From Burkholderiales bacterium (GTDB lineage: Bacteria > Pseudomonadota > Gammaproteobacteria > Burkholderiales > Burkholderiaceae_C): a DNA stretch of 64,000 bases. The DNA is taken from contig JANMXL010000064.1 in the NCBI GenBank assembly GCA_031380885.1, positions 5,842-69,841 on the forward strand. The letters are read 5' to 3'. Position 1 is the stretch's first letter; the number at the start of each line of letters is the position of its first letter. Positions 18,669 to 40,533 of this stretch are shown here, piece by piece. The notes under the pieces were generated by a model. That model did no database searches and was not told where the DNA came from. It saw only the letters and a program-made list of their open reading frames with translations. The position numbers and the translations under genes are program-made.

Positions 18669-18682
18669 GCAAACGGCATGCC
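18669..18682 (-). promoter_or_regulatory. putative sigma-54 promoter core GGCATgccgtTTGC (minus strand), upstream of the GmhB-like gene
   Basis: Exact GG-N10-GC spacing with the TTGC -12 element. The -12 GC is 39 nt from the start codon. Confidence 0.55.
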
Positions 18683-18713
18683 GATCGCGCTCGAAGTGGG
18701 AAATGCCTCCACG

Positions 18714-18727
18714 GGCACAACGTTTGC
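18714..18727 (+). promoter_or_regulatory. putative sigma-54 promoter core GGCACaacgtTTGC, upstream of the L,D-transpeptidase gene
   Basis: Canonical GGCAC-N5-TTGC, 36 nt from the annotated TTG start. Back-to-back with the 18669 site. Confidence 0.55.
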
Positions 18728-18762
18728 CGTGAAGTGGGTCTCGTCCCGCTGCCACTCACGCC

Positions 18763-19425
18763 TTGACGCCCAACACCTGCACCGTCGATTCGATACCCCA
18801 GCGTGCGCGACGCTGGTTGATCACCGCTGTCCTGGCGTGTTTTGCCGCATCGGCCCCGGCCGCGCCGGAGGTGGCGTTGTCGAATGACGCCCAAGCCCTG
18901 GTGAAGCAGGTGGCGCTGTCGAACGATCACCAGGGTGCACCGTTCCTCGTGCTCGATAAACACCAGGCCCGCCTCTGGGTGTTCGACACCCAGGCGCGCC
19001 TGCAGGGAAGCACCCCGGTGCTGCTCGGCCTGGCGATCGGCGACGACACCGCGCCTGGCGTTGCCGAGCTGCCGCTGGCGCAGATCGCCGATGCCGCGCG
19101 CACCACGCCGGCCGGGCGCTTCGTCATCGAGCCCGGGCGCAACCTGCATGGCGACGAGATCCTGTGGATCGACTATGCCGCGGCGGTGTCGATGCACCGC
19201 GTGCGTTCGGTGAATGCGGGTGAACGTCGATTGCAACGGTTGGCGTCACCCATCCCGGCTGACAGGCGCATTTCCTATGGCTGCATCAACGTGCCGGTGG
19301 CCTTCTTCAACCGCGTGCTGACGCCGTTTCTTCAGCAGTCGCGGGCCATCGCCTACGTGCTGCCGGAAACGCGGCCGATGGAGGCGGTGTTCCCGTTCAT
19401 GGGAACGCAGGTGACTGGCCGCTGA
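18763..19425 (+). CDS. L,D-transpeptidase family protein
   Basis: YkuD-type catalytic 'SYGCINV' and signal-like 'WLITAVLACFAASAPA'. The TTG start is uncertain. Confidence 0.8.
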   Translation: MTPNTCTVDSIPQRARRWLITAVLACFAASAPAAPEVALSNDAQALVKQVALSNDHQGAPFLVLDKHQARLWVFDTQARLQGSTPVLLGLAIGDDTAPGVAELPLAQIADAARTTPAGRFVIEPGRNLHGDEILWIDYAAAVSMHRVRSVNAGERRLQRLASPIPADRRISYGCINVPVAFFNRVLTPFLQQSRAIAYVLPETRPMEAVFPFMGTQVTGR

Positions 19426-19434
19426 ATTGCCGAA

Positions 19435-19463
19435 CAGAGAAGGTGCACGCGGCACCTTCTCTG
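19435..19463. terminator. bidirectional hairpin terminator (12-bp stem)
   Basis: CAGAGAAGGTGC-acgcg-GCACCTTCTCTG between convergent genes. No long T run. Confidence 0.5.
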
Positions 19464-19469
19464 CATCGC

Positions 19470-19895: not shown

Positions 19896-19972
19896 GTGTG
19901 TCTCCGTGGGGTTGAACGGGTCGCCGGTCTGCGCCGAAGATCGGGTTTGAGCAGCGTCGTGCAGCCCACCGG

Positions 19973-19986
19973 GCAAGCCGCGTTCC
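19973..19986 (-). promoter_or_regulatory. possible sigma-54-type core GGAACgcggcTTGC (minus strand)
   Basis: Correct spacing, but the -24 element is GGAAC rather than GGCAC. 78 nt upstream of the 19895 start. Confidence 0.35.
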
Positions 19987-20043
19987 TGACATCGCAACTG
20001 CCCGCCGCAGCCGCCTCCACCCACAACACGCCTGACGCGTTCA

Positions 20044-20057
20044 GGCATCCCGCTTGC
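20044..20057 (+). promoter_or_regulatory. putative sigma-54 promoter core GGCATcccgcTTGC, upstream of the GlsB/YeaQ-like gene
   Basis: GGCAT-N5-TTGC, 58 nt upstream of ATG 20115. Confidence 0.5.
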
Positions 20058-20114
20058 CCCACTCTTTCGGCAGAGCGCACGTCGCGCATCTGCGCACTTC
20101 ACAAGGACAATTTC

Positions 20115-20387
20115 ATGATCAATCTCATCGTCTGGCTCGTCATCGGCGGGCTCATCGGCTGGGTTGCCAGCATGCTGATGAAAACCGATGGACAACAGGG
20201 CATGTTCCTGAACATCGTTGTCGGCATCGTCGGCGCGGCACTTGGTGGCTGGTTCATCTCCCCACTGGTCGGCATTGCCAGCATCAACGACGGCAACTTC
20301 AGCATCGGCGCACTCGTCGTCTCGCTGATCGGCGCAGTCATCTTGCTGGCCATCGTCAACCTCTTTCGGCGCGGCTCCGCACGTTAA
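20115..20387 (+). CDS. GlsB/YeaQ/YmgE-family stress membrane protein
   Basis: 90 aa with three TM segments. 'LVIGGLIGWVASML' is typical of the family. Confidence 0.85.
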   Translation: MINLIVWLVIGGLIGWVASMLMKTDGQQGMFLNIVVGIVGAALGGWFISPLVGIASINDGNFSIGALVVSLIGAVILLAIVNLFRRGSAR

Positions 20388-20435
20388 GCGCCGCCGAGTC
20401 ACGCCCCAGCACTCATCAACCATCACCCGCGAAAG

Positions 20436-20687
20436 ATGTTGATGACAACAATGAATACCCCCGATGCCACCGACGGCCTGCGGTGCACGGTGTGGGGCAA
20501 CCCGCCGGGCGCATGGGTGACCGACTTTGCCAAGCCACCATTGGGGGTGGACTTCGACCTCGACTTGAATCCCAGTGACGATCCGAACGCAGGCTTCGTT
20601 TATGTGGAACGCGACACGGTCGATACCGAAGCTGCGGTGTTCGATGTGCTGTCTCGCGAGGTTGTGGATGGGGCCGAAGCTGACTGA
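20436..20687 (+). CDS. hypothetical acidic small protein
   Basis: ORF only. No recognisable family or strong RBS. Confidence 0.35.
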   Translation: MLMTTMNTPDATDGLRCTVWGNPPGAWVTDFAKPPLGVDFDLDLNPSDDPNAGFVYVERDTVDTEAAVFDVLSREVVDGAEAD

Positions 20688-20706
20688 GTGAGGTGGTCTT
20701 GCCGCC

Positions 20707-21987: not shown

Positions 21988-22028
21988 AATGTCAACGTCG
22001 ACTGCAGCAGCATGTCTTGCAGCAGGCC

Positions 22029-24008: not shown

Positions 24009-24022
24009 GCAATTGTCGTTCC
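24009..24022 (-). promoter_or_regulatory. possible sigma-54-type core GGAACgacaaTTGC (minus strand), upstream of the hybrid kinase
   Basis: Correct spacing with a GGAAC -24 variant. A 10-bp-stem hairpin (23940..23964) lies in the would-be leader, which weakens the call. Confidence 0.3.
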
Positions 24023-24066
24023 CGGCCTGCACGCCGGTGCAGCGCGTGCAGGTCTTTCTCGTGGGG

Positions 24067-25368: not shown

Positions 25369-25448
25369 TCGGTGTCTCCATGAGGTGTTCGACATTGAGT
25401 GAACCTCTCAGGCAAGCGACGCGCCCACATCGCCAGCGTGATCGACCG

Positions 25449-25462
25449 GGAACAGTCTTTGC
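25449..25462 (+). promoter_or_regulatory. possible sigma-54-type core GGAACagtctTTGC
   Basis: Correct spacing with a GGAAC variant. 78 nt upstream of ATG 25540. Confidence 0.35.
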
Positions 25463-25539: not shown

Positions 25540-25902
25540 ATGAAAGACGAACCGATCTACAACACCAGCCAGCCGTTCATGAAGCTGGTCCAGTCCAACA
25601 TGGAACTGGTCAACCAGATGATGCCGAAACCGGAAGCGCTGTCGAACTCGATTGCCACTGGTGGCAAGTCGCTGTATCAACCCTCCGCGTTGACGAGCCC
25701 CTTCAACCAGGGCGCAGCATTTGGTCAGATGATGCAATCGATGATCAGGAACTACGCCGTCTTTCTGACCGAGTGGGGTCAGTGCTCGATGAACGCCATC
25801 GTGCACAGCCAGCAGGCTTTCCAGCACAGCGCCCAGCAGGCCGCCGACATGGCAATCGAAGCAAGCCGCAGCGCCGAAAAAATCAGAGCCAAAGCGGCTT
25901 GA
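25540..25902 (+). CDS. hypothetical protein, possibly phasin-like
   Basis: 'PFMKLVQSNMELVNQMM' resembles phasin N-termini. This is a weak family call. Confidence 0.5.
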   Translation: MKDEPIYNTSQPFMKLVQSNMELVNQMMPKPEALSNSIATGGKSLYQPSALTSPFNQGAAFGQMMQSMIRNYAVFLTEWGQCSMNAIVHSQQAFQHSAQQAADMAIEASRSAEKIRAKAA

Positions 25903-29170: not shown

Positions 29171-29601
29171 GTCGTCAAGTCCTTTGCGGTGGGGCCGCTC
29201 GAAGCAGCGGCCCACACGGAACGCAGCAATCGTTCAGTAAGAGATGGTCCGACCATGCTGACCAGCAGGTCGTGGAAAGTTTCGAAAAGCAGGGCCGCGC
29301 CGGCTGTGGCCTCCAAATGCGATTGCTGCTTGAACACCGAATTCAGGTCGGACAGATTGACCGATGCCAGCGCGTGGTCATGCACCTCCATCAGCCACGG
29401 ATGGCCCTGCGCCGCCACATACACACTGCGCTTGTAGAGGGCCGCGAAACCGCGCGGGCCAACGATGGGTGTCAAGGCCGCATCGATCTCCTGCCATGCC
29501 ACAACGACAGCATCAGCGAGCCGGCCGGCATCTGCATAGGCGCTCACGCGGTGTGCTAAAGGGGGGGCGAGCGAGCCACTCGCAGGGCTTTCCATAGACA
29601 T
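29167..29601 (-). CDS. hypothetical protein, first gene of the kaiC operon
   Basis: ATGA overlap with the kaiC start. No family recognised and not KaiA/KaiB-like. The start may be 29595, 29601 or 29706. Confidence 0.55.
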   Translation of the reverse strand: MSMESPASGSLAPPLAHRVSAYADAGRLADAVVVAWQEIDAALTPIVGPRGFAALYKRSVYVAAQGHPWLMEVHDHALASVNLSDLNSVFKQQSHLEATAGAALLFETFHDLLVSMVGPSLTERLLRSVWAAASSGPTAKDLTT

Positions 29602-29780: not shown

Positions 29781-29794
29781 GCAAGCGGTGTGCC
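29781..29794 (-). promoter_or_regulatory. putative sigma-54 promoter core GGCACaccgcTTGC (minus strand), upstream of the kaiC operon
   Basis: Canonical GGCAC-N5-TTGC. 75 nt from ATG 29706, or 180 nt from 29601. Confidence 0.55.
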
Positions 29795-29814: not shown

Positions 29815-29943
29815 TGACCGGCAAGGCGTGAACGCGCCTGATCGGCAAAATTTACCGTAATGCAGGCCGCATCGGTAAGGCGACCCGAGTGGCCCGGCGA
29901 GCGGGCCTGTCGCTTGCCCGGGCAGTTGCGCCTGGCGCGGCAC

Positions 29944-29957
29944 GGCACGGGGGTTGC
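29944..29957 (+). promoter_or_regulatory. putative sigma-54 promoter core GGCACgggggTTGC, upstream of the rpoN copy
   Basis: Canonical spacing. 37 nt upstream of GTG 29994, with AGGAG at 29981-29985. Confidence 0.55.
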
Positions 29958-29993: not shown

Positions 29994-31457
29994 GTGGTGA
30001 CCCTGAATTTTCAAACCGATACCCGTCAAGTGCAAGCCCTGTCGCCGCGTTTCCAGCATGCGGTGCGGCTGCTGCAGCTGTCGTCGATGGACTTTGCTGC
30101 CACGGTGCGCGACGTGCTGGGCCAGAACCCGTTTCTGGAGATCGAGGACGGCGTGGCGGAGGGCGAGGGCGCCGACGTCGATGCGTTGGACGGTGACAGT
30201 GCTGAGGCCTTGGCTTCAGCTGCGATGCCGTTCGACGACCACGCGATGTCGTCGGACGCGGAGGGCCTTGCCGACGACCGCGGCGACGATCGCGACCTGT
30301 GGCTGGTCGAAGGCTCGTCGTCGCAGCGGCAGGCGGGCGATGGCGACGTGTCGGCGCTGGACCTGATGGCGGTTGATCTTCCGCTGAATGCGCACCTGAA
30401 TGCCCAGCTCGATCTGCAACCGTTGGCGACCCGCGAGCTGTGGATGGCGCGCGCCATCGTCGAATCGCTCGACGACGACGGCTACCTGCGCACCCCGCTG
30501 GCCGAGCTGTGCGAACTGGTACCGCTGAATCCACCGGTGGACGCCGCCGAGATGCAAACGGCCTTGCAGCGCGTGCAGGCGTTGGACCCGGCGGGCGTGG
30601 GCGCTCGCAGCGTGGCCGAATGCCTCACGCTGCAGCTGCCGGCGATCGAATGCCCGCTGCTGCGCGGGCTGGCTGAGCGCATCGTGACCGAGCACCTGAC
30701 GCTGCTGGCGGCGCGCGATGTGAACGCGCTGGCGCGTGCGCTCGGCGAACCGGCGTTGCGGGTGCAGCAGGCGTGCGATCGCATCCGCCGCTTCGATCCG
30801 CGGCCTGGCTGGCGTTTCAGCTCGATTCGCACCGCCTATGTGGTGCCCGATGTGGTGGTGAAAAAGGTGCGCGGCGAATGGCGGGTGCAGCTGAACCCGG
30901 CGGTGATCCCGCGGGTGCGCCTGAACCAGGTTTATGCCGCGCTGTTCAAGCGCCACCGCAGCACCGCCAACGCCGACATGGCCGGCCACCTGCAGGAAGC
31001 GCGCTGGACGGTGAAGAACGTCGAGCAACGCTTCTCGACCATCCTCGACGTGGCCGAAGCGATCGTCAAGCGGCAGCGTCACTTCCTGGAATTCGGGCCG
31101 ATGGCGATGAAGCCGCTGGGCCTGAAGGAGATCGCCGATGAACTCGGCATCCACGAGTCCACCGTTTCGCGGGTCACCAACAACAAATTTATCGCCACCC
31201 CCAGCGGTGTGTTCGAACTGAAGCATTTTTTCTCGCGGGTGATGGTCACGGCCAACGGCAGCGCCTGTTCGGGCACGGCCATCCGCGGGTTGCTGAAAGA
31301 CTTGATCGCCGCCGAGGCACCCGATGCGCCGCTGTCCGATGCCGAAATCACCCGGCAGCTGGCCCAGCAGGGGCTGGTGGTGGCGCGGCGCACCGTCACC
31401 AAATACCGTCAGCTGCTGCGCATCGACGCGGTGGGACGGCGCCGCCGCCAGGCCTGA
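29994..31457 (+). CDS. rpoN: RNA polymerase sigma-54 factor outside the canonical rpoN context (likely paralog)
   Basis: Region I 'RLLQLSSMDF', acidic region II, C-terminal RpoN box 'ARRTVTKYR'. No lptB/hpf/ptsN neighbours. Confidence 0.9.
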   Translation: MVTLNFQTDTRQVQALSPRFQHAVRLLQLSSMDFAATVRDVLGQNPFLEIEDGVAEGEGADVDALDGDSAEALASAAMPFDDHAMSSDAEGLADDRGDDRDLWLVEGSSSQRQAGDGDVSALDLMAVDLPLNAHLNAQLDLQPLATRELWMARAIVESLDDDGYLRTPLAELCELVPLNPPVDAAEMQTALQRVQALDPAGVGARSVAECLTLQLPAIECPLLRGLAERIVTEHLTLLAARDVNALARALGEPALRVQQACDRIRRFDPRPGWRFSSIRTAYVVPDVVVKKVRGEWRVQLNPAVIPRVRLNQVYAALFKRHRSTANADMAGHLQEARWTVKNVEQRFSTILDVAEAIVKRQRHFLEFGPMAMKPLGLKEIADELGIHESTVSRVTNNKFIATPSGVFELKHFFSRVMVTANGSACSGTAIRGLLKDLIAAEAPDAPLSDAEITRQLAQQGLVVARRTVTKYRQLLRIDAVGRRRRQA

Positions 31458-31479: not shown

Positions 31480-31493
31480 GGCACGTCGCTTGC
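31480..31493 (+). promoter_or_regulatory. putative sigma-54 promoter core GGCACgtcgcTTGC, upstream of the 31576-35336 operon
   Basis: Canonical GGCAC-N5-TTGC, 83 nt upstream of ATG 31576. Confidence 0.55.
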
Positions 31494-31575: not shown

Positions 31576-32166
31576 ATGAATATCGACATGAATCTGATCA
31601 AGCGCTGGCCGCGGCCGGTCTCGCTCGACATCGCGATCCACTACGAACGCAGCGTGCCGGATCGGCGCGCCTATCGCCTGGCGCCATGTGACGGCACGTC
31701 GCAAGTTCGGGTGCAGCTCCCGCAGCACGGCGCCATGCCGCTCGAAGTGCAGAGCATGGATTGGTCTCAGCTGCCGGGCAATACGCTGTATCTGCGCAGC
31801 CTCAGTGTGCTCGCCGTGCACCTGTTCGGCGCGGTGGCGATGCCGCCGCGTGTGTGCGGCGCACCGCTGTGGCAGCACATCAATGTTGGCATCTCGACCG
31901 ATGACCACAGCGCACACCCGCTGTATTTCGAGCTGGACGCCATCGACGACAGGCGCGCGGTGCTGCGTTACCGCTTTCAGCATCATCAGCCGCTGGTTCG
32001 CCGCGCGCTGGCTCTCGACCGGCTCGACGCCGACCCGTTACGTGCGCTGTTGCGTGTGGGAGCGACGCGCGTGCGCCCTGGTCTGACGCGAAACGCGGAG
32101 CCGATGCGCTCCGCGCCGCCGCCACGACACGTTCACGCGGCGGCCGACATGGCGCTGCGCGCGTGA
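31576..32166 (+). CDS. hypothetical protein
   Basis: ATG preceded by GGAG at 31564-31567. 196 aa. No family recognised. Confidence 0.55.
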   Translation: MNIDMNLIKRWPRPVSLDIAIHYERSVPDRRAYRLAPCDGTSQVRVQLPQHGAMPLEVQSMDWSQLPGNTLYLRSLSVLAVHLFGAVAMPPRVCGAPLWQHINVGISTDDHSAHPLYFELDAIDDRRAVLRYRFQHHQPLVRRALALDRLDADPLRALLRVGATRVRPGLTRNAEPMRSAPPPRHVHAAADMALRA

Positions 32167-32191
32167 GTGCAGCCACTGTGATCACGCGGCC

Positions 32192-32893
32192 ATGATTGCG
32201 GTCATCGTTCCGGTGCATAACGAGGAGGCGTACCTCGCCGCCTGCCTGCGTTCGGTACGCGAGGCCTCGCGGCGCCGGCGCCTGGACGGCGAGCCCGTGC
32301 TGCGGGTGGTGGTGCTCGACAACTGCAACGACGGCAGTGCGGACATCGCCCGCGTCTGCGGCGCCCACACGCTGCGCTTGCAGGCCTGCAACGTGGGCGC
32401 GGCACGGGCACTTGGTGCACAGTGGGCCATCGATCGAGGCGCACGCTGGTTGGCCTTCACCGATGCCGATTCAGTGGTTGCGCCCGAATGGTTGTCGTCA
32501 CAATTGGCGCTGCGCAGCGATGCGGTGTGTGGCACGGTCGCGGTCAGCAACTGGGGCGATTACGGTGAGCGCATGCGCCGCCATTACGACGCCACCTACA
32601 CCGATGCCGACGGCCACCATCACATCCACGGCGCGAATCTGGGCGTTAGCACGGCGGCGTACTGCCGCGCCGGGGGCTTTCAGCCGTTGACCAGCAGCGA
32701 AGACGTGGCGCTGGTGCGTGCGCTGCAAGCCAGCGGCGCTGCGATCGCCTGGTCAGCCGCGCCCCGCGTGACGACGAGTGCGCGGCAGCTCTACAAAGCG
32801 CCACTGGGCTTCGGAGCCACCCTGCAGCGCATCGATGCCGAGAGCCGGTACCGTGCCGAGGGCCGTGAAATAGGCGCTGCCACTGCGTCATGA
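32192..32893 (+). CDS. family 2 glycosyltransferase (short, soluble type)
   Basis: 'VIVPVHNEE', 'VLDNCNDGS' and 'FTDADS' (DxD). Confidence 0.85.
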   Translation: MIAVIVPVHNEEAYLAACLRSVREASRRRRLDGEPVLRVVVLDNCNDGSADIARVCGAHTLRLQACNVGAARALGAQWAIDRGARWLAFTDADSVVAPEWLSSQLALRSDAVCGTVAVSNWGDYGERMRRHYDATYTDADGHHHIHGANLGVSTAAYCRAGGFQPLTSSEDVALVRALQASGAAIAWSAAPRVTTSARQLYKAPLGFGATLQRIDAESRYRAEGREIGAATAS

Positions 32894-33972
32894 GCACCGC
32901 CAGTGCTGCCGTCAGGATGGTGTCGCCAACGCTGCTGATCCGCCTGCGCCGCGCGCTGGCCGATCAGGACCCGCAGGCTGAAGCTTGCGATCGGCTGAAC
33001 GCACTGGTGGCTGCTGGCTTCGGCGATTTGCCACAGCCTGGTGGCGGCCAGACGCTGCTGCGCTGGCAGGCGCTGGCGGCGGTCTCCGAACACGATCTGT
33101 CGCTGGGCAAACTGTATGAAGGCCACACCGATGCGCTTGCGGTGATGCGCGAGTTGGCGCTGGACCGCGACATCGCTGCCGACAGCACCTGGGGGATGTG
33201 GGCGGCCGAGGGATCTGGCGCGCGCGCCACGGTGAAGTCCCGGCCCGACGGCCGAGTGTCGCTGCACGGCGCCAAGACGTGGTGCTCGGGGGCGGCGCGC
33301 TTGAGCCATGGGCTGCTGACCGCCTGGCCCACGAATGATGTCGGGCCACAGCTGGTGCGCGTGGTCATGAATCAAGACGGGGTGACGGTTGATGGCAGCA
33401 CTTGGCGTGCTGTTGGCATGGCAGGCAGCGCCAGCGTGGATGTGTCGTTTTCAGGCGCGGTGGGTGATGCGGTCGGCGCACCCGGCGACTATCTGTCCCG
33501 GCCCGGCTTCTGGCAGGGCGGCGCGGGCATCGCGGCGTGCTGGTACGGCGGGGCGCGCGCGCTCGGCGTGGCGCTGCGCCACTCGGTCGCGCGCACGACC
33601 GACGCCACCCGCAGCCTGTTCGGCCCCTTGGCGGTCGGCCGTGTCGATGTGGCGCTGCACAGCACCGCGGCGCTGCTGCGCGATGCGGCGCAATGGATAG
33701 ACGCCCATCCGCTGGCCGATGCCAGTGAGGTGGCGCTGCGCACCCGGCTCGCGGCCGAGTTGTGCGCCAAGGTGTTGCTGGACGAGGCAGGTCGTGCCCT
33801 GGGCGCCGCGGCCTACTGTCGCGACCGGCACTTTGCACGCATGGCCGCTGATTTGCCGGTGTTCGTGCGGCAAAGCCATGCCGAGCGGGACTTCGCCGCA
33901 CTGGGCGAGCGGGTGGCGGCACCGCTGCCAGCCTCCCGCCATGGCACCGACGACAGCCCATGGGCGCTCTGA
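32890..33972 (+). CDS. acyl-CoA dehydrogenase-like protein
   Basis: ACAD-like middle and C-terminal pattern ('GAKTWCSGA', 'GGAGIAACWYGGA'). 4-nt overlap with the GT2 gene. Confidence 0.7.
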   Translation: MSTASAAVRMVSPTLLIRLRRALADQDPQAEACDRLNALVAAGFGDLPQPGGGQTLLRWQALAAVSEHDLSLGKLYEGHTDALAVMRELALDRDIAADSTWGMWAAEGSGARATVKSRPDGRVSLHGAKTWCSGAARLSHGLLTAWPTNDVGPQLVRVVMNQDGVTVDGSTWRAVGMAGSASVDVSFSGAVGDAVGAPGDYLSRPGFWQGGAGIAACWYGGARALGVALRHSVARTTDATRSLFGPLAVGRVDVALHSTAALLRDAAQWIDAHPLADASEVALRTRLAAELCAKVLLDEAGRALGAAAYCRDRHFARMAADLPVFVRQSHAERDFAALGERVAAPLPASRHGTDDSPWAL

Positions 33973-34721
33973 CCGCTCGACGTGCCATCGAAGGCGTCGG
34001 CTGCACCGAATCGGTGTGGCGCGAGTGGCTGGATGCCCTGGACGTGCCGACGCTGGCGTGGAACGACTGGCTGCCCGCAACGGCACGGCTGGTGGTGGTT
34101 GCGCCGCACCCCGACGACGAGGTGCTGGCCTGCGGCGCGCTGCTGGCGATGCATGCGGCGCGCGGTGGTGAGTGCTGCGTCGTGGCGGTCACTGACGGCG
34201 AAGGCAGCCACCCCGGATCGAAGCGGTGGACCCCCCAGCAGCTGACAGCTGTTCGCCGCGCCGAAAGAGCCGAAGGCCTGCTGCGGCTCGGCCTGGGTGG
34301 CGCGTCGCTGCATGGCCTGGGGCTGCCTGACGGTGCGGTGCAGACACAGGCCGACGTGCTCCGATTGCGCCTGACCGACTTGTTGCGGCCTGCCGATGTG
34401 GTGGTCACCACCTGGCCGCTCGACGGCCACCCCGACCACGATGCCTGCGGTGCCGCCGCCGTGCAGACCTGCGCTGCCGTGGGGTGCCGCTTGCTCACTG
34501 CGCCGGTGTGGATGTGGCATTGGGCCGCGCCCGGGGATGCGCGTGTGCCCTGGCATCGGCTGCGCGCGCTGCAAGTCGATTCGGCAGCGCTGCAGCGCAA
34601 GCAGGCGGCACTGGAGGCGCATGTGTCGCAGCGCACCGCGCGGGAAGGCGGGCAGGGCCCGGTGCTCGGCGCTGAAATCCTGGCCCGGGCGGCACGCGAG
34701 CGCGAATACTTTTTCGTTTGA
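33960..34721 (+). CDS. PIG-L/LmbE-family deacetylase
   Basis: 'VVAPHPDDEVLACG' Zn motif and 'HPDHDA'. Confidence 0.85.
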   Translation: MGALTARRAIEGVGCTESVWREWLDALDVPTLAWNDWLPATARLVVVAPHPDDEVLACGALLAMHAARGGECCVVAVTDGEGSHPGSKRWTPQQLTAVRRAERAEGLLRLGLGGASLHGLGLPDGAVQTQADVLRLRLTDLLRPADVVVTTWPLDGHPDHDACGAAAVQTCAAVGCRLLTAPVWMWHWAAPGDARVPWHRLRALQVDSAALQRKQAALEAHVSQRTAREGGQGPVLGAEILARAAREREYFFV

Positions 34722-34736
34722 ACCGAGGCCGCCACG

Positions 34737-35336
34737 ATGTCGCACACACCTGCCTATTTCGACTCGATGTTCCATGCCGACAGCGATCCGTGGAAGTTCC
34801 GCACGCGCTGGTACGAGGTGCGCAAACGCGCACTCACCCTGGCGTGCTTGCCGAAGTCTCACTACGACGCGGCCTACGAGCCGGGTTGCGCCAACGGCGA
34901 GCTGTCGGCCGCGTTGTCCGAGCGTTGCTCGCGCCTGCTCGTTTCCGATGGGTCGGCCCCGGCGGTGCAGTTGGCCCGACAACGCCTGGCGGGGCTTGCG
35001 CATGTTGAAGTGCGGCAGGCCTGGGTGCCGACGCAATGGCCAGACGAGCAGTTCGACCTGATCGTCATCAGCGAGCTGGCCTACTTTCTGACCGCCGGCG
35101 CACTGGACGCCATGATCGGAAAAATCAAGGCGTCCCTGAGTTCGGGCGGCACCGTGTTGGCGTGCCATTGGCGACGGCGCAGCGACGACTGCGAATTCAG
35201 CGGTGACCGGCTGCACCGCCAGCTGGGCAGCGGGCTCGGTTTGCCGCACCTGAGCCGCTTGATCGAGCCCGATGTGCGCGTCGATGTGTGGAGCGCCGAC
35301 CCGCGCTCGGTGGCGCAGCAGGAGGGTTTCGCGTGA
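34737..35336 (+). CDS. class I SAM-dependent methyltransferase (NodS-like)
   Basis: 'YFDSMFHADSDPWKFRTRWYEVRKR' N-terminus and 'EPGCANGELS' motif I. Confidence 0.85.
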   Translation: MSHTPAYFDSMFHADSDPWKFRTRWYEVRKRALTLACLPKSHYDAAYEPGCANGELSAALSERCSRLLVSDGSAPAVQLARQRLAGLAHVEVRQAWVPTQWPDEQFDLIVISELAYFLTAGALDAMIGKIKASLSSGGTVLACHWRRRSDDCEFSGDRLHRQLGSGLGLPHLSRLIEPDVRVDVWSADPRSVAQQEGFA

Positions 35337-35345
35337 TGCGCCCGG

Positions 35346-36095
35346 CTACAGGCTCAGCAGCTGTGACAGCAACGCGTTGACCTGAGATTGCGCGCCGAGC
35401 CGAAAGCGCGCGCAGCTGCTTGTGCCCACCGGCGCGATGCGCACGCTGACGCAGCCCGCACCGGCGCGGGCGAACGCCGGCTCGTCGTTCACGTCATCGC
35501 CAACGATCAAGGCGTTCGGTGCGCCGCATTCGTGCATCAGCTGCACCAGCGCGTCACCCTTGTTCGGCGCATTTGACGGGGTGATGTTCAGCACACTGTG
35601 GCCGTGTGCCGCGGCGATGCCGGGCCCGTGCGCTGCGGTCAGGCTGTCGAGCCAGCGGCGCACCGAGGCGACGTCTGCCGATCGCCGGTAGTGCCATGCC
35701 AGTGATGCGCCCTTGTCTTCGACATCGACGCCGCGCTCATCGAACACCCGGGCCCACTGCCGCGCCTGCTCGCGACAGCCGGCGAGCGCGTGGTGCGGTG
35801 CCGGGAATGAGGTGCTGCCGGCCCGCTCGGCACCGTGATTGCCCACCAGGAAGCGCGGCTCGAAGCCGAGGCGAAGCCGGGCGTCGGCCACCGCCCGACC
35901 GGTGATCACTGCCACCGGCCAGCGCCGCGCCAGCGCTTGCAGCCGTGCGGCGGTGATGCGCGAGACCGCCGCATCGCTCGGCCGCATGACGAGCGGTGCC
36001 AGTGTGCCGTCGAGGTCGAAGGCAAGCAACGCATGCCTGTGGCTGAGTCGCCGCAAGGCCCGCAGCCCTTGCGGTGAGAAGAGCGATGCGGTCAT
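35346..36095 (-). CDS. otsB: trehalose-phosphatase
   Basis: 'LAFDLDGTLAP' HAD motif and 'VGDDVNDEPAF'. ATGA overlap with otsA. Confidence 0.85.
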   Translation of the reverse strand: MTASLFSPQGLRALRRLSHRHALLAFDLDGTLAPLVMRPSDAAVSRITAARLQALARRWPVAVITGRAVADARLRLGFEPRFLVGNHGAERAGSTSFPAPHHALAGCREQARQWARVFDERGVDVEDKGASLAWHYRRSADVASVRRWLDSLTAAHGPGIAAAHGHSVLNITPSNAPNKGDALVQLMHECGAPNALIVGDDVNDEPAFARAGAGCVSVRIAPVGTSSCARFRLGAQSQVNALLSQLLSL

Positions 36096-37681: not shown

Positions 37682-38012
37682 GGGTAGTGCATGCGGTGGT
37701 GGAGGGCGGCCAATTCGGGCAATCGAGATACCCGCGCCCATCACCCAGCGGGCTGGCATCGGAATTGCCGCCTTTTCTGATTGAGCACCCGACGTTGGCG
37801 CGATTGCGCGACAGCCTTTGCGCAGATCTGCCCCAGAGGAATGTGGTGCACGCTGCCTCTGCGGGTTTGCTCACGGCGTTCGGCCGTGAACCCGTGGTGA
37901 CGGACATGGGCGCTCTGCAAGAGCCTGCAGCGTCGGCAGCGCCGTTCGCCATGCCCGCACAGGCGCCACACGCCATGGGGTGCGCCGAGAACGTTGGTGC
38001 GTTGGTAGCCCG

Positions 38013-38339
38013 TCAGCGGGCGCGGCGCAATAGGTCGCGTCGGCGAGTGTCGTCCAGTCCGGCGGTCGCGCGCAGATCGGTGTCGACCAGGCCCGCGTCC
38101 AGGTCCTTCTTCGCCTGCACCATCACATCCTGCGGGTGTGGGTTGACTTCGCCGGGCCTCTCATCGCGTTCGCTGGGCATCGGCAACCGTTGACCGTCCT
38201 GGGCCGGACGGGATCCTGGTGCGGTGGGCGACCGGGCCACGCCGACATGGGCGTTGGGCTTTTGGGTCCGCGCCGATCGTTTGGCTGGCGGGGCCGAGTT
38301 GACGGTGGTGGGAGGCTGCGGTGCGGTCTGGCGTTTCAT
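38013..38339 (-). CDS. hypothetical small basic/Pro-rich protein
   Basis: The C-terminal 'DVMVQAKKDLDAGLVDTDLR' looks like a conserved small-protein tail. No family name known to me. Confidence 0.5.
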   Translation of the reverse strand: MKRQTAPQPPTTVNSAPPAKRSARTQKPNAHVGVARSPTAPGSRPAQDGQRLPMPSERDERPGEVNPHPQDVMVQAKKDLDAGLVDTDLRATAGLDDTRRRDLLRRAR

Positions 38340-38408
38340 CGGAAATCCTGTCGGTAAGTCTTGCCAGGGAGCGTGGCAAATCGTGCGCCCGCAGGGCGAA
38401 TCGCTGTC

Positions 38409-40454
38409 TCAGCCGGCGCCGCTGACGCGGTGCTGCCAAGCGGCGAGCCTGTCGATCAGCGCCTGCGGATCGACAGGCTTGGTGTAGTGGTGGTCGAAGC
38501 CTGCGGCCTGCGAGCGGCGCTGGTCTTCTTGCTGCCCCCAACCGGTGAGCGCCACGATCAGCATGTCGGCGCCCCACGGTTCGCGGCGCAGGCGGCGTGC
38601 CACCTCGTGGCCGTCGAGCCCCGGCATGCCGATGTCGAGCAGCGCCACCTGCGGGCGCACCTGCGAGGCCAGCGCCAGCGCGCTCGGGCCATCGCTGGCC
38701 ACATGCACCGTGTGGTGCTCCAGGCCCAGCAGCATCGCCAGGCTGTCGGCCGCATCCTGGTTGTCGTCGGCAATCAGGATCGACAGTGCAGCCTTCGGTT
38801 CTGTCGTGCTGCCAGTGTGCTGTGGCGCCGCCACGTCGAGCGGCACGGGCTTCGATCCGGTGAGCCTGACAGGCAGCAGCAGGCTGAAGGTGCTGCCGCA
38901 GCTAAGCCCGGCGCTCGCCGCGACCAGGCGCCCGCAGTGCAATTCGACCAGGCCGCGTGACAGTGCCAGCCCGATGCCCAAGCCGCCGTGCGCGTGGTGG
39001 CTGGCGTTTCGCAACGGCGAAAACATGTCGAACACATAGGGCAGCTGTTCGGGCGTAATGCCGACGCCGTTGTCGCTGATGGCGATCGCCAGGGTGTCGG
39101 CATCGACCTGCGCGGTGATGCCGATGCGGCCACCAGGCTCGGTGTACTTCGCGGCGTTGAGCAGCAGGTTGGCCAGCACTTGCGACAGGCGCACCTCGTC
39201 GACCTCGACATCGATCGACGGCAAGTCGATGTGCAGCGTGTGGCGCTTCTCGTCGAGCAGGGGCCGGGCGGTCTCGATGGCCGTCTGCACCACCTCACGC
39301 AGAGGCTGCTCACGCAGGCTCAGCTCCAGCCGACCGGCCGAGATGCGCGAGATGTCCAGCAGGTCGTCGAGCAGCCAAGCCATGTGCCGGACCTGCCGGT
39401 TGATGATGTCCCGGCTGGCAGCCAGTTCGTCGGGGGTCAGGCCCGGGTGGCCGAGCACCGAAGCCGCGCTGCGGATCGGCGCCAGCGGGTTGCGCAGCTC
39501 GTGCGCAAGGATCGCCAGGAATTCGTCCTTGCGTCGATCGGCTTCGCGCAGCGCTTCAGACGCTTGCCGCGCCTCGGTCACGTCGATGTGCACACCGACC
39601 CATTCGCGCACCGACCCGTCGATGTCCAACACCGGCACCGCGCGCACCGCATAGCGCCGCCAGCTGCCATCGAGGCTGCACACGCGGTGCTCCCATTCGA
39701 AGTTTCGCTGCTGGGCCACGGCCTGCTTCCAGGCTGCCAGCGTCGGTGCTGCGTCGTCAGGATGGACGGCGGCCGCCCAGCCATGGCCCTGGTACTGCGC
39801 CAGCGTCTGTCCACTGATGGCCGCCCAGCCGGGCTGCTCGCCGACCATTTCACCCTGCGCGGTGTTGGTCCACATCAGGCCAACGGCGCGCACGGCAGCC
39901 TTGAAGCGCTCCTCGCTCAGGCGGCGGGACGATTCGGCCAGCTGCAGCCGGGCCTGGGCCTCGTCACGCAGGCGTTGCTCGATGCGCAGCGTGGCGCAGA
40001 TGCAGAACAGGCCGACCACCGCGCCAGCGTCGTCGCGCACCGGGTGGTAGCTGAAGGAAAAACGGGTTTCAACCGGCACGCCGTCGCGCTGCACCGTCAA
40101 CCGCAGGTCGTCGATCTGCACGCTGTGACCGGCATCGACCCGGTCGAACAGCGGGCTGATGATCTGCCAAAGCTCGGGCCAAACCTGCCGCATCGGCTGA
40201 CCGAGCGCTGCCGGATGACGCGTGCCGAGGATCGGTGCGTAGGCGTCGTTGTAGAAAAAAATCCGCTGCGGGCCCCATGCGACGAACATCGCTTCGCTGG
40301 CGCCGAGGATCAGGCCGGTCAACAGCCGCAATTCGGCCGGCCAGTCGGCGGGCGCACCGAGCGCCGCGACGGCGGCGCTGTCGACACCGTCGCGCAGCAG
40401 CCGTGCCGAGGCCCCGGGGTGATCGAGGAACGCAGGCGTTGGCGAGACGGGCAT
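38409..40454 (-). CDS. PAS-domain hybrid sensor histidine kinase/response regulator (cytoplasmic)
   Basis: Two PAS-like regions, H-box 'AHELRNPL', ATPase 'GGLGIGL', REC 'ILIADDNQD...DIGMPGLDG'. Start at 'MPVSPTPAF'. Confidence 0.9.
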   Translation of the reverse strand: MPVSPTPAFLDHPGASARLLRDGVDSAAVAALGAPADWPAELRLLTGLILGASEAMFVAWGPQRIFFYNDAYAPILGTRHPAALGQPMRQVWPELWQIISPLFDRVDAGHSVQIDDLRLTVQRDGVPVETRFSFSYHPVRDDAGAVVGLFCICATLRIEQRLRDEAQARLQLAESSRRLSEERFKAAVRAVGLMWTNTAQGEMVGEQPGWAAISGQTLAQYQGHGWAAAVHPDDAAPTLAAWKQAVAQQRNFEWEHRVCSLDGSWRRYAVRAVPVLDIDGSVREWVGVHIDVTEARQASEALREADRRKDEFLAILAHELRNPLAPIRSAASVLGHPGLTPDELAASRDIINRQVRHMAWLLDDLLDISRISAGRLELSLREQPLREVVQTAIETARPLLDEKRHTLHIDLPSIDVEVDEVRLSQVLANLLLNAAKYTEPGGRIGITAQVDADTLAIAISDNGVGITPEQLPYVFDMFSPLRNASHHAHGGLGIGLALSRGLVELHCGRLVAASAGLSCGSTFSLLLPVRLTGSKPVPLDVAAPQHTGSTTEPKAALSILIADDNQDAADSLAMLLGLEHHTVHVASDGPSALALASQVRPQVALLDIGMPGLDGHEVARRLRREPWGADMLIVALTGWGQQEDQRRSQAAGFDHHYTKPVDPQALIDRLAAWQHRVSGAG

Positions 40455-40519
40455 GCCCGATGGTATGCGCCGCTCATATTCGACCGCAAGTTGATGCGAA
40501 GGCAAATTGGCGTCGGTCC

Positions 40520-40533
40520 GGCACGCCGTTTGC
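40520..40533 (+). promoter_or_regulatory. putative sigma-54 promoter core GGCACgccgtTTGC, upstream of the Crp/Fnr-family gene
   Basis: Canonical GGCAC-N5-TTGC, 51 nt upstream of ATG 40584. Confidence 0.55.

What the first reader, a model, noticed from the sequence alone, without database searches (positions are those of the whole stretch)
18669..40533. Constellation of sigma-54-type -24/-12 promoter cores in a 22-kb stress and signalling region
Reading intergenic DNA by eye, I find ten matches to GG[C/A]A[C/T]-N5-TTGC with exact GG-N10-GC spacing. All lie in intergenic DNA and point at the adjacent start codon. The -12 GC is 36 to 100 nt upstream of the start, except the kaiC operon, where it is 75 or 180 nt depending on the start chosen. 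Seven carry the canonical GGCA[C/T]: 18669(-), 18714(+), 20044(+), 29781(-), 29944(+), 31480(+) and 40520(+). Three carry GGAAC: 19973(-), 24009(-) and 25449(+). Nine of the ten read TTGCC. By my own rough arithmetic, assuming about two-thirds GC, GGCA[CT]-N5-TTGC should occur about once by chance in the 128 kb of two-strand sequence. Seven correctly oriented hits in a few kb of intergenic DNA is therefore unlikely to be chance. Three pairs are back-to-back and divergent; at 18.7 kb the two -24 elements are only 31 bp apart. The genes served are a GmhB-like phosphatase, an L,D-transpeptidase, a GlsB/YeaQ protein, a low-complexity secreted protein, a hybrid kinase with an antiporter, a phasin-like protein, the kaiC operon, rpoN itself, the GT2 operon and a Crp-like regulator. 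I did not scan coding DNA systematically.
Basis: partly seen in the sequence, partly recalled or inferred. Interest (0 to 1): 0.8.

Follow-up and report, generated by a model that had tools for sequence, protein, structure and literature searches.

The report
Stress-gene cluster run by sigma-54 promoters
A 25-kb block of stress and signalling genes in an uncultured Burkholderiales bacterium carries about thirteen sigma-54-type promoters, its own sigma-54 gene and a matching activator gene, and the same arrangement recurs in related genera, so it looks like a self-contained stress regulon that has not been described.

Summary
All ten sites sit at the stated coordinates. GGCAY-N5-TTGC occurs 10 times in the window against 2.6 expected. 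In intergenic DNA alone the wider pattern occurs 11 times against 0.5.

The motif has sigma-54 geometry (GG-N10-GC) and follows gene direction (19 right, 1 wrong). It tracks the presence of the local rpoN gene, not kaiC or the Crp-like gene. An rpoN gene (29994-31457) and a REC-AAA+-HTH activator gene (16498-17946) lie in or beside the cluster.

The same promoter type recurs upstream of stress genes next to orthologous rpoN genes in Rubrivivax, Roseateles, Pelomonas and several MAGs. These genes include catalase, BON, CsbD, YeaQ, DUF2383, hemerythrin, otsBA and kaiC.

I add three variant promoters at 25412(-), 37719(-) and 38376(-). The sites differ from the textbook consensus: no T at -26, and C at -11. 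This rpoN is never in the lptB-rpoN-hpf context, so it is probably a specialised paralogue. No enhancer was found. Verdict: a new member of a known kind, of moderate interest.

The parts
16498..17946 (+). Enhancer-binding protein: response-regulator receiver, AAA+ sigma-54 interaction domain (GSFTGA loop) and Fis-type HTH. It is the only such gene in the window.
   Evidence: Pfam domains Response_reg, Sigma54_activat and HTH_8. Below the cut-off of every named NCBIfam equivalog. Orthologues at 72-93% identity lie on the same contigs as rpoN orthologues.
18669..18682 (-). -24/-12 core GGCATGCCGTTTGC(C), serving the HAD phosphatase gene 18630-17986.
   Evidence: 21.3 bits. Conserved in L065.
18714..18727 (+). 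-24/-12 core GGCACAACGTTTGC(C), serving the unknown secreted protein gene 18763/18817-19425. Back-to-back with the previous core.
   Evidence: Conserved in L065.
19973..19986 (-). -24/-12 core GGAACGCGGCTTGC(C), serving the low-complexity secreted protein gene 19895-19470.
   Evidence: 18.6 bits.
20044..20057 (+). -24/-12 core GGCATCCCGCTTGC(C), serving the Transgly_assoc (YeaQ/GlsB) gene 20115-20387 and the small ORF 20442-20687.
   Evidence: Transgly_assoc genes in L066 and L070 carry the same motif.
24009..24022 (-). -24/-12 core GGAACGACAATTGC(C), serving the hybrid histidine kinase gene 23909-22029 and the Na+/H+ exchanger gene 21948-20707. This is the weakest of the ten.
   Evidence: 12.2 bits. 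The GC is lost in L065. Hybrid-kinase genes in L067 and L069 have good sites.
25412..25425 (-). New variant core GGCGCGTCGCTTGC(C), serving DUF4398 25368-24982 and the OmpA/DUF4398 gene 24954-24067.
   Evidence: Matrix hit of 11.8 bits. Conserved as GGCGC-N5-TTGCC in L065 and L071.
25449..25462 (+). -24/-12 core GGAACAGTCTTTGC(C), serving the 120-aa unknown protein gene 25540-25902.
   Evidence: The orthologous position in L071 carries GGAACGGCCCTTGCC in front of a catalase gene.
29781..29794 (-). -24/-12 core GGCACACCGCTTGC(C), serving the operon of a 142-aa unknown protein (29589-29167), kaiC (29170-27632) and a GGDEF histidine kinase (27609-25948).
   Evidence: Conserved in L007, L008 and L065, degenerate in L071, absent in L009-L011.
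29841..29878 (.). Conserved block TTACCGAT..N..CGGTAAAT.TTGCCGATC (TTTACCG/CGGTAAA inverted repeat) between the rpoN and kaiC-operon promoters. Candidate regulator or enhancer site specific to rpoN.
   Evidence: Present upstream of rpoN in the window, L007-L009, L065, L067, L070 and L071, in variant form in L010 and L011, and with CGGTAAAA instead in L069.
29944..29957 (+). -24/-12 core GGCACGGGGGTTGC(G), serving rpoN. It has G or A rather than C at -11 in all 12 orthologous loci. A weaker second match lies at 29904-29917.
29994..31457 (+). rpoN (sigma-54), 487 aa, complete, and not in the lptB-rpoN-hpf context.
   Evidence: Pfam AID, CBD and DBD domains. TIGR02395 score 408 against a cut-off of 277. 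RpoN box ARRTVTKYR and HTH HESTVSRVTNNK. Genomic contexts, compared with E. coli.
31480..31493 (+). -24/-12 core GGCACGTCGCTTGC(C), serving the operon of unknown 196-aa protein, GT2, acyl-CoA-dehydrogenase-like protein, PIG-L deacetylase and methyltransferase (31576-35336).
   Evidence: 20.6 bits. Conserved in L007, L065 and L071.
37719..37732 (-). New variant core GGTATCTCGATTGC(C), serving otsA 37681-36092 and otsB 36095-35346 (trehalose synthesis).
   Evidence: 11.9 bits. The same position reads GGCACCCGAATTGCC in L008 and GGCTCCTCGATTGCC in L071.
38376..38389 (-). New variant core GGCGCACGATTTGC(C), serving the conserved 108-aa unknown protein gene 38339-38013.
   Evidence: Conserved in L008 and L071 together with the downstream leader.
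40520..40533 (+). -24/-12 core GGCACGCCGTTTGC(C), serving the Crp-like regulator gene. The conserved in-frame ATG at 40545 is 12 nt after the -12 C, so the mRNA is predicted to be leaderless.
   Evidence: (22.1 bits).

Best explanation
The ten sites, plus three variants that I add, are sigma-54-type (-24/-12) promoters. Together they serve almost every transcription unit of a 25-kb gene block (about 16.5-41.3 kb).

The block encodes:
- its own sigma-54 (rpoN, 29994-31457);
- one response-regulator-type enhancer-binding protein (16498-17946);
- three histidine kinases;
- stress-type cargo: trehalose synthesis (otsBA), a YeaQ-type membrane protein, OmpA/DUF4398 lipoproteins, a Na+/H+ exchanger, a KaiC operon, a glycosyltransferase operon and a Crp-like regulator.

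Proposed mechanism (inferred):
1. RNA polymerase carrying this sigma-54 sits in closed complexes on the GGCAC-N5-TTGCC cores.
2. A stress signal sensed by one of the clustered kinases phosphorylates the receiver domain of the activator.
3. The activator assembles and uses ATP to open all the promoters together.
4. rpoN and at least one kinase gene carry such promoters too, which gives feedback or a cascade.

The promoter 'dialect' (no T at -26, C at -11) and the non-canonical genomic context suggest that this rpoN is a specialised paralogue with its own promoter set.

Shown here: motif, geometry, direction, conservation, co-occurrence and protein domains.
Inferred: transcription starts, dependence on this sigma factor and this activator, the signal, and paralogue specificity.
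For: Enrichment and location:
- Strict-pattern excess over shuffles and within intergenic DNA alone.
- Intergenic location and correct orientation.
- Unbiased enumeration of gapped dyads puts GGCA-N7-TGCC first in intergenic DNA, both in the window and in the related loci.
- A matrix trained on other genera recovers the sites.

Promoter-like behaviour:
- Direction in tandem intergenic regions is 19 right against 1 wrong.
- The cores are phylogenetic footprints.

Link to this rpoN:
- Six loci from other genera carrying orthologous rpoN genes have 54 matches in 17.4 kb of intergenic DNA, against 22 in 111 kb of coding DNA.
- These sites lie in front of BON, CsbD, Transgly_assoc, DUF2383, hemerythrin, catalase, hybrid kinase and rpoN genes.
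- Motif density is 2.72 per 10 kb where rpoN is present, against 0.13-0.26 where only kaiC or Crp homologues are present.

Geometry:
- Distances from the GC to the start codon are 12 and 14 nt, then 30 nt or more.
- The conserved start codons of the Crp-like gene (6 genomes) and of Top1B (2 genera) lie 12-13 nt after the -12 C. That is exactly where a sigma-54 start site would be.

Proteins:
- The sigma-54 protein is complete.
- The activator is complete, adjacent and co-inherited.

Literature:
- The related Aquincola has four rpoN paralogues, and its RpoN1 promoter is canonical TGGCAC (PMC9850573).
- RpoN paralogues in Rhodobacter sphaeroides differ in their -11 preference and pair with cognate activators (PMC3162934; PMC11999139).
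- Burkholderia pseudomallei RpoN2 is needed for katE expression in late stationary phase (PMC4745423).
Against: - There are no transcription-start, expression or mutant data for this organism or its relatives.
- No shared upstream enhancer was found. Several promoter pairs are back-to-back and only 10-31 bp apart, which leaves no room for a conventional enhancer at -80 to -150.
- The sites lack the T at -26 (0 of 10 in the window, 6 of 49 elsewhere). They carry C instead of A/T at -11.
- I could not show a second, housekeeping rpoN in this genome.
- The core is nearly palindromic (GGCA-N7-TGCC), so a dimeric DNA-binding protein is conceivable.
- The sites at 24009(-) and 29781(-) are not conserved in all relatives.
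- Roseateles has RpoS, so this system does not simply replace RpoS.
Confidence: 0.8

Rival explanations
1. The sites are genuine sigma-54 promoters, but they are read by the cell's general sigma-54. The local rpoN is then either the only copy or functionally interchangeable, and the -26/-11 deviations are just lineage-wide drift of the consensus.
For: - The RpoN box and HTH of this protein are close to those of E. coli.
- No second rpoN could be shown in this genome.
- In Bradyrhizobium japonicum the two rpoN copies are reported to be interchangeable (PMC4371752).
- In Ralstonia, rpoN2 expression depends on rpoN1.
- The rpoN promoter here differs from the rest at -11, which suggests some cross-talk.
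Against: - This rpoN is never found in the lptB-rpoN-hpf context.
- The related Aquincola has four paralogues, and its mapped RpoN1 promoter is canonical TGGCAC.
- C at -11 in 41 of 49 sites plus 9 of 10 sites, with background-level T at -26, is a consistent dialect.
- The motif clusters around this rpoN and its activator.
Confidence: 0.17
2. The motif is the operator of a dimeric transcription factor, for example the Crp-like protein encoded at 40545-41336, which would bind the near-palindrome GGCA-N7-TGCC. On this reading it is not a promoter.
For: - GGCA-N7-TGCC is the top dyad and is two-fold symmetric.
- A Crp-like gene is part of the cluster, and Crp homologues are often near kaiC operons.
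Against: - The asymmetric positions (C/T at -21 against an invariant T at -15) follow gene direction 19 to 1.
- Loci with Crp and kaiC but no rpoN have 0.13 matches per 10 kb, against 2.72 with rpoN.
- The odd 7-bp spacer differs from the Crp and Fnr site architectures known to me (my own knowledge).
- The fixed 12-13 nt spacing to conserved start codons fits a transcription start, not an operator.
Confidence: 0.02
3. The matches are a chance or compositional artefact of GC-rich intergenic DNA, or copies of a short mobile repeat.
For: The pattern is short. Shuffles give 2.6-3.5 matches per window. One good match lies inside otsB and one points the wrong way.
Against: - 11 observed against 0.47 expected in intergenic DNA, with a maximum of 4 in 1000 resamplings.
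- Flanks outside -27 to -9 are at background composition, so the sites are not a repeat family.
- The sites are conserved at orthologous positions across genera.
Confidence: 0.01

Closest known systems
Paralogue-specific sigma-54 modules of Rhodobacter (Cereibacter) sphaeroides: RpoN1 with NifA, RpoN2 with FleQ/FleT, RpoN3 with AprX
   Same: - A dedicated rpoN copy is paired with a cognate enhancer-binding protein and a defined gene set.
- Promoter sets are distinguished at position -11 (PMC3162934; PMC11999139).
- Here the regulon sites carry C at -11 and rpoN lies beside its targets.
   Different: - The cargo here is stress and dormancy-type genes, not nif, flagellar or ctrA-control genes.
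- The -26 position also deviates.
- About 13 promoters plus rpoN plus the activator sit in one 25-kb block.
- Paralogue specificity is inferred, not tested.
RpoN2 of Burkholderia pseudomallei (chromosome 2) and of Ralstonia solanacearum (megaplasmid)
   Same: - Both are second rpoN copies in Burkholderiales outside the lptB context.
- B. pseudomallei RpoN2 is needed for katE in late stationary phase, and an RpoN box precedes katE (PMC4745423). A large catalase gene carries the motif in L071.
- The Ralstonia rpoN2 locus holds an activator 55% identical to the one here, a PAS hybrid kinase, and DUF883, DUF1328, BrkB and DUF2334 genes.
- Ralstonia rpoN2 has a sigma-54 promoter of its own and depends on rpoN1.
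   Different: - Ralstonia RpoN2 is only 43% identical to this RpoN, so it belongs to a different clade.
- Its neighbouring sites read TTGGCAC-N5-TTGCA and GGTAC-N5-TTGCTGCACC, a different flavour.
- Its function is described as enigmatic.
- No regulon of this breadth has been reported in the papers I could search.
Canonical sigma-54 promoters, TGGCAC(A/G)-N4-TTGC(A/T)
   Same: GG and GC are exactly 10 nt apart, the GGCAC and TTGC cores match, G is preferred at -20, and the sites lie upstream of genes and depend on an AAA+ activator (consensus as quoted in PMC4371752).
   Different: - T at -26 is at background level (0 of 10 and 6 of 49).
- Position -11 is C in about 85% of sites instead of A/T.
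- No enhancer was detected.
- Many promoters are back-to-back pairs.
General stress regulons under RpoS (gamma- and beta-proteobacteria), EcfG (alpha-proteobacteria) and SigB (Firmicutes)
   Same: The gene content resembles them: otsBA, a large catalase, OsmY-like BON, CsbD, YeaQ-type, DUF2383 and OmpA-like genes. That these are typical members of RpoS or SigB regulons is my own knowledge.
   Different: - The sigma factor is of the sigma-54 family and needs an ATP-driven activator.
- RpoS coexists in at least one relative (Roseateles depolymerans, PMC10037100), so this is an additional layer, not a replacement.

Membership tests
Sigma-54-dependent (-24/-12) promoter | Invariant GG and GC dinucleotides separated by exactly 10 nt | tested here: met
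   All ten reader sites and three added sites meet this. So do 49 sites in six related loci.
Sigma-54-dependent (-24/-12) promoter | Extended consensus TGGCAC(A/G)-N4-TTGC(A/T): T at -26 and A/T at -11 | tested here: not met
   At -26, T occurs in 0 of 10 window sites and 6 of 49 related sites. At -11, C occurs in 9 of 10 and 41 of 49. GGCAC, G at -20 and TTGC are met.
Sigma-54-dependent (-24/-12) promoter | Located upstream of a gene and co-oriented with it, at a distance compatible with a start site 12 nt after the GC | tested here: met
   All sites are intergenic and co-oriented. Distances are 12-14 nt or at least 30 nt. Conserved start codons lie at +1 or +2 for the Crp-like gene and Top1B.
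Sigma-54-dependent (-24/-12) promoter | A sigma-54 gene and an enhancer-binding protein with an intact GAFTGA loop in the genome | tested here: met
   rpoN is at 29994-31457. The activator at 16498-17946 has Walker A GESGSGKE and the loop GSFTGA, with F and T retained.
Sigma-54-dependent (-24/-12) promoter | Upstream activator (enhancer) sites about 80-150 bp upstream | tested here: inconclusive
   No shared dyad was found in the -160 to -27 regions of 62 sites, apart from an rpoN-specific CGGTAAAT block. Back-to-back pairs leave little room for an enhancer.
Sigma-54-dependent (-24/-12) promoter | Transcription starts 11-13 nt after the GC and depends on rpoN and on ATP hydrolysis by the activator | not testable with these tools
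   This needs 5' end mapping, mutants or in vitro transcription. The only expression data set found for a relative was truncated just before the cluster.
RpoN (sigma-54) protein family | Activator-interacting, core-binding and DNA-binding domains, with an RpoN box and HTH | tested here: met
   PF00309, PF04963 and PF04552. TIGR02395 scores 408 against a cut-off of 277. ARRTVTKYR and HESTVSRVTNNK align with E. coli.
Housekeeping rpoN locus | Genomic context lptA-lptB-rpoN-hpf-ptsN | tested here: not met
   Here rpoN lies between the kaiC operon and a glycosyltransferase operon. Orthologues in seven other loci sit among stress genes. The E. coli reference context is.
Specialised RpoN paralogue with cognate activator (Rhodobacter sphaeroides type) | More than one rpoN gene in the same genome | not testable with these tools
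The related Aquincola tertiaricarbonis has four paralogues (PMC9850573).
Specialised RpoN paralogue with cognate activator (Rhodobacter sphaeroides type) | A promoter set distinguishable from the canonical one (position -11), with a co-inherited activator | tested here: met
   The dialect has C at -11. The activator is adjacent or on the same contig in the window, L010, L065 and L067, and by matching contig lengths in five further cases (against 78). These are correlations only.
Operator of a dimeric Crp/Fnr-type regulator | Two-fold symmetric site, orientation-independent, co-occurring with the regulator gene | tested here: not met
   Symmetry is only partial. Orientation is 19 right to 1 wrong. 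Density is 0.13 per 10 kb in loci with a Crp homologue but no rpoN.
ECF/EcfG-type promoter (GGAAC at -35, then 16-17 nt, then a -10 element) | Two elements about 16-17 nt apart | tested here: not met
   The second conserved element (TTGC) lies 5 nt after GGAAC/GGCAC. Nothing is conserved 16-17 nt downstream.

The most novel reading that the evidence does not exclude
This rpoN defines a 'stress sigma-54'. It would be a paralogue, conserved across the Rubrivivax-Roseateles-Pelomonas-Rhizobacter lineage of Burkholderiales, with its own promoter dialect (GGCAC-N5-TTGCC, no T at -26, C at -11). Together with one phosphorylation-controlled activator it would drive an RpoS-like general stress or dormancy regulon: trehalose synthesis, catalase, BON/OsmY, CsbD, YeaQ, DUF2383, hemerythrin, LigD, topoisomerase IB and, in this sublineage, a KaiC operon. 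That would be a fourth, activator-gated architecture for a general stress response, beside RpoS, EcfG and SigB. The 'enigmatic' RpoN2 of Ralstonia and Burkholderia might be distant relatives of it.
Probability: 0.4. Interest if true: 0.75.

Novelty: new member of a known kind. Interest (0 to 1): 0.55.

Why it matters
Sigma-54 promoters cannot open without an ATP-driven activator, so they are silent until signalled. If a whole stress and dormancy gene set sits behind one dedicated sigma-54 paralogue and one phosphorylation-controlled activator, that would be an unusually tight, switch-like way to run a stress response.

It would also give a concrete function to second rpoN copies in Burkholderiales. 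The papers I could read call these copies enigmatic or link them to a single gene (katE).

The promoter dialect gives testable predictions about how sigma-54 paralogues partition promoters: C at -11, no T at -26, and a different -11 base at rpoN's own promoter.

It also places a non-cyanobacterial KaiC operon under a defined regulator.

The work can be done in cultured relatives, Rubrivivax gelatinosus and Roseateles.

Tried and rejected
- **Shared enhancer.** I enumerated gapped dyads in the -160 to -27 regions of 62 sites, with promoter cores masked. Only CGGTAAAT came up, and it is confined to the rpoN upstream region. TTRCCGAT is likewise not shared among promoters.
- **Sigma-70-type promoters.** The scan of 18-32 kb found 1 site against 1.0 expected, and that site lies inside a gene.
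- **Known RNA families.** Rfam gave none in the cluster, only two tRNA-Lys genes at 45 kb.
- **ECF/EcfG reading of the GGAAC sites.** Rejected: the second element is 5 nt away, not 16-17 nt.
- **Crp-operator reading.** Rejected on orientation and co-occurrence.
- **Repeat or mobile-element reading.** Rejected because the flanks are at background composition.
- **The motif as a general feature of kaiC operons.** Rejected: 53 of 58 kaiC loci lack rpoN, and none of these 53 has the motif upstream of the first gene.
- **Expression data.** The Roseateles depolymerans starvation transcriptome table is truncated just where the homologous cluster begins, and its normalised values are uninformative.
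- **Aquincola rpoN paper.** The paper describing the four paralogues (PMC5494619) is not held.
- **Second, housekeeping rpoN.** I could not show one in the same genome.
- **RpoN2 replacing RpoS.** Not supported: a relative is reported to express RpoS.

Full report
**1. The observation**

The pattern GGCAYN5TTGC occurs 10 times in the 64-kb window against 2.59 expected from dinucleotide-preserving shuffles. None of 100 shuffles reaches 10. GGMAYN5TTGC occurs 14 times against 3.52 expected.

I built a gene map from codon statistics, the gene calls of near-identical metagenome contigs and Pfam. On that map all ten sites lie in intergenic DNA and point at the neighbouring gene. Restricting the test to the roughly 8 kb of intergenic DNA gives 11 matches against 0.47 expected. 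The maximum in 1000 resamplings was 4.

- 4063(-), on the argG stop codon upstream of ppnP;
- 35829(+), inside otsB;
- 37755(+), intergenic but pointing the wrong way;
- 47834(-).

**2. What surrounds the sites**

The cluster spans about 16.5-41.3 kb. It lies between housekeeping genes on the left and tolB-pal-ybgF on the right. It encodes:
- a REC-AAA+-HTH_8 enhancer-binding protein (16498-17946, loop GSFTGA);
- a HAD phosphatase;
- two unknown secreted proteins;
- a Transgly_assoc (YeaQ-type) protein;
- a hybrid histidine kinase with a Na+/H+ exchanger;
- DUF4398 and OmpA lipoproteins;
- a 120-aa unknown protein;
- an operon of a 142-aa unknown protein, KaiC and a GGDEF histidine kinase;
- a complete sigma-54 gene (29994-31457; TIGR02395 score 408 against a cut-off of 277);
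- an operon of an unknown protein, GT2, an acyl-CoA-dehydrogenase-like protein, PIG-L and a methyltransferase;
- otsB and otsA;
- a 108-aa unknown protein;
- a PAS hybrid kinase;
- a Crp-like regulator.

This is the only enhancer-binding protein gene in the window. It does not reach the cut-off of any named NCBIfam equivalog.

**3. Is the motif a promoter?**

Five independent lines say yes.

(a) *Unbiased discovery.* I enumerated all 4-mer/gap/4-mer dyads. GGCA-N7-TGCC and its sub-dyads rank at or near the top of those enriched in intergenic over coding DNA. This holds in the window (14 against 1.1) and in related loci (80 against 4.4).

At 15 bits or more there are 10 intergenic hits and 1 coding hit.

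(c) *Direction.* The core is nearly palindromic, but its asymmetric positions follow gene direction. In intergenic regions flanked by two co-directional genes, 19 sites point with the genes and 1 against (p = 4e-5).

(d) *Footprints.* The cores are the conserved islands in otherwise diverged orthologous intergenic regions.

(e) *Geometry.* Distances from the GC to the start codon are 12 and 14 nt, then 30 nt or more. The Crp-like gene has a conserved in-frame N-terminus, MKC(L/H/I/N)CE. Its ATG lies 12-13 nt after the -12 C in six genomes, while the intervening bases are not conserved. The topoisomerase IB gene starts 12 nt after the -12 C in both Roseateles and Rubrivivax. That is exactly where a sigma-54 transcription start would lie, so these mRNAs are predicted to be leaderless.

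**4. The link to this rpoN**

The 142-aa-protein/kaiC pair is widespread: 58 loci in Burkholderiales, Xanthomonadales and Pseudomonas. rpoN lies next to it in only five Rhizobacter-like genomes.

Homologues of this RpoN at 63-91% identity are numerous. I fetched seven contexts: Burkholderiales PBB1, Rubrivivax gelatinosus, Roseateles puraquae, Pelomonas sp. P7, a TARA MAG, a JGI contig and the window's own contigs.
- None is in the lptB-rpoN-hpf context seen in E. coli.
- All are surrounded by stress-type genes: Transgly_assoc, BON, CsbD, DUF2383, hemerythrin, a large catalase, OmpA/glycine-zipper proteins, LigD, otsBA, AI-2E transporters and hybrid kinases.

In six of these loci the pattern occurs 54 times in 17.4 kb of intergenic DNA, against 22 times in 111 kb of coding DNA. 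It is again co-oriented with the downstream genes.

Motif density is 2.72 per 10 kb in the 11 loci that carry this rpoN. It is 0.13 in loci with Crp-like and kaiC genes but no rpoN, and 0.26 in the remaining kaiC loci.

The activator is co-inherited:
- it is adjacent or on the same contig in L010, L065 and L067;
- orthologues at 72-93% identity share contig lengths with RpoN orthologues in five further cases (against 78).

In R. gelatinosus the activator sits at a separate locus that carries further motif sites. The motif therefore marks a regulon, not just one cluster.

**5.

Three transcription units that seemed to lack a promoter have variant cores conserved at orthologous positions:
- 25412(-) GGCGCGTCGCTTGCC, serving DUF4398/OmpA (L065, L071);
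- 38376(-) GGCGCACGATTTGCC, serving the 108-aa protein gene (L008, L071);
- 37719(-) GGTATCTCGATTGCC, serving otsA. The same position reads GGCACCCGAATTGCC in L008 and GGCTCCTCGATTGCC in L071.

With these, every unit between 17986 and 41336 is served except the PAS kinase gene. The activator gene itself also lacks a site.

The kaiC-operon site is present in the closer relatives only.

**6. The dialect**

I tabulated 49 sites from other genera plus the 10 window sites.
- Position -26 is T in 6 of 49 and 0 of 10. That is background level.
- Position -11 is C in 41 of 49 and 9 of 10.
- G is preferred at -20 and at -17.

The consensus quoted in the literature is TGGCAC(A/G)NNNNTTGC(A/T) (PMC4371752). 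A mapped RpoN1-dependent promoter in the related Aquincola reads TGGCAC...CTGCTT (PMC9850573).

rpoN's own promoter, GGCACGGGGGTTGC(G/A), is conserved in all 12 orthologous loci and never has C at -11. This may mean it is read differently, for example by a housekeeping RpoN. In Ralstonia, rpoN2 expression depends on rpoN1.

The DNA-binding motifs of the protein are close to E. coli. Small clade-specific differences exist, such as TNNK against TTQK in the HTH. I draw no conclusion from them.

**7. Paralogue or not**

I could not show a second rpoN in this genome. The inference rests on four points:
- the non-canonical context in eight loci;
- the dialect;
- the report that Aquincola tertiaricarbonis, from the same group, has four rpoN paralogues;
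- established precedents for paralogue-specific promoter sets and cognate activators in Rhodobacter sphaeroides.

A relative, Roseateles depolymerans, is reported to express RpoS. This system therefore adds to RpoS rather than replacing it.

**8. Comparison with what is known**

The closest experimental precedent in the order is Burkholderia pseudomallei RpoN2. It is required for katE expression at 48-72 h, and an RpoN box precedes katE (PMC4745423). A large catalase gene carries the motif in L071.

Ralstonia solanacearum RpoN2 is described as enigmatic and is only 43% identical to this RpoN. Its locus nevertheless contains:
- an activator 55% identical to the one here;
- a second, REC-less activator;
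- a PAS hybrid kinase;
- DUF883, DUF1328, BrkB and DUF2334 genes.

It also has sigma-54-type sites of a different flavour. Full-text searches found no paper that describes a sigma-54-paralogue stress regulon in this lineage, or a kaiC-rpoN link.

**9. What remains open**

- No shared enhancer was found.
- Many promoters are back-to-back pairs whose -24 elements are only 10-31 bp apart, so how one activator reaches them is unknown.
- A conserved TTTACCG/CGGTAAA inverted repeat lies upstream of rpoN in most loci. Its role is unknown.
- The signal, the cognate kinase, and whether KaiC feeds into the activator are all inferred.

**10. Verdict**

The feature is a new member of a known kind: a sigma-54 regulon with its own rpoN copy and activator. 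Its notable traits are stress-type cargo, a promoter dialect and clade-wide conservation. Interest is moderate (0.55), because all functional steps are still inferred and the concept has precedents.

Noticed in passing
window 40534-40583: The Crp-like gene probably starts at the ATG at 40545, not at the called start 40584. The N-terminus MKC(L/H/I/N)CE is conserved in six genomes and begins 12-13 nt after the -12 C. This predicts a leaderless mRNA from a sigma-54-type promoter. Topoisomerase IB genes in L067 and L073 show the same 12-nt spacing.
   Followed up: yes
window 29841-29878; also L007-L011, L065, L067, L069-L071 upstream of rpoN: A conserved block TTACCGAT..CGGTAAAT.TTGCCGATC (inverted repeat TTTACCG/CGGTAAA with variable spacing) lies upstream of rpoN in most orthologous loci, whatever the divergent neighbour is. 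It is not found at the other promoters. It could be an rpoN-specific regulator site or a sigma-70-type promoter.
   Followed up: partly
window 37682-38012: The otsA upstream region carries an insertion of about 200 bp relative to L008 and L071. The insertion contains the one 'wrong-way' strict match, 37755(+), lying back-to-back with the otsA core at 37719(-).
   Followed up: partly
window 35829-35842 (+): A strong match (17 bits), GGCACCGTGATTGCC, lies inside otsB on the antisense strand. It could be chance or an antisense promoter. I did not check whether it is conserved.
   Followed up: no
window 4063-4076 (-): GGCACCTGAGTTGCG overlaps the argG stop codon, about 55 nt upstream of the ppnP start. 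It has G at -11 and scores only 10.5 bits. It lies outside the cluster.
   Followed up: no
window 29167-29589 (-); L007-L064: A protein of about 142 aa with no Pfam or NCBIfam family precedes kaiC in 58 loci across Burkholderiales, Xanthomonadales and Pseudomonas. It has an invariant C-terminal motif, LTERLLRSVW. It looks like an uncharacterised KaiC partner. The 179-aa call in the window is probably too long at the N-terminus.
   Followed up: partly
L068 (Ralstonia solanacearum megaplasmid AP024098, 2117748-2139244): The rpoN2 locus holds two enhancer-binding proteins (one 55% identical to the window's, one without a receiver domain), a PAS hybrid kinase, and DUF883, DUF1328, BrkB and DUF2334 genes. 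A canonical TTGGCACAGCCTTTGCA lies before rpoN2. There are also two sites reading GGTAC-N5-TTGCTGCACC. This suggests that the 'enigmatic' RpoN2 heads an analogous small stress module.
   Followed up: partly
L009 9945-10000; L010 and L011 about 9960-9985: Upstream of the 142-aa gene, L009 has five tandem copies of CGCCAACAG, and L010 and L011 have a poly-C tract of 10-15 bases. These replace the sigma-54-type core found in closer relatives.
   Followed up: no
window 45081-47950: Two tRNA-Lys genes (anticodons TTT and CTT) are followed by about 2.5 kb of low coding density, with a MarR-HTH/nucleotidyltransferase gene and small ORFs. This may be the remnant of an integration site.
   Followed up: no
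window 32192-35336: The four-gene cassette of GT2 glycosyltransferase, acyl-CoA-dehydrogenase-like protein, PIG-L deacetylase and SAM methyltransferase is preceded by an unknown 196-aa protein gene. It is conserved with rpoN in L008 and L071 and absent in L065. Its product is unknown.
   Followed up: no
window 24027-24042: A perfect palindrome, CTGCACGCCGGTGCAG, lies immediately upstream of the -24 element of the 24009(-) core and just after the OmpA stop codon. It could be a terminator hairpin or an NtrC-like half-site pair (TGCAC-N4-GTGCA).
   Followed up: no
window 13409-14095: A small ORF followed by a PIN-domain gene looks like a type II toxin-antitoxin pair. It lies just left of the cluster.
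   Followed up: no
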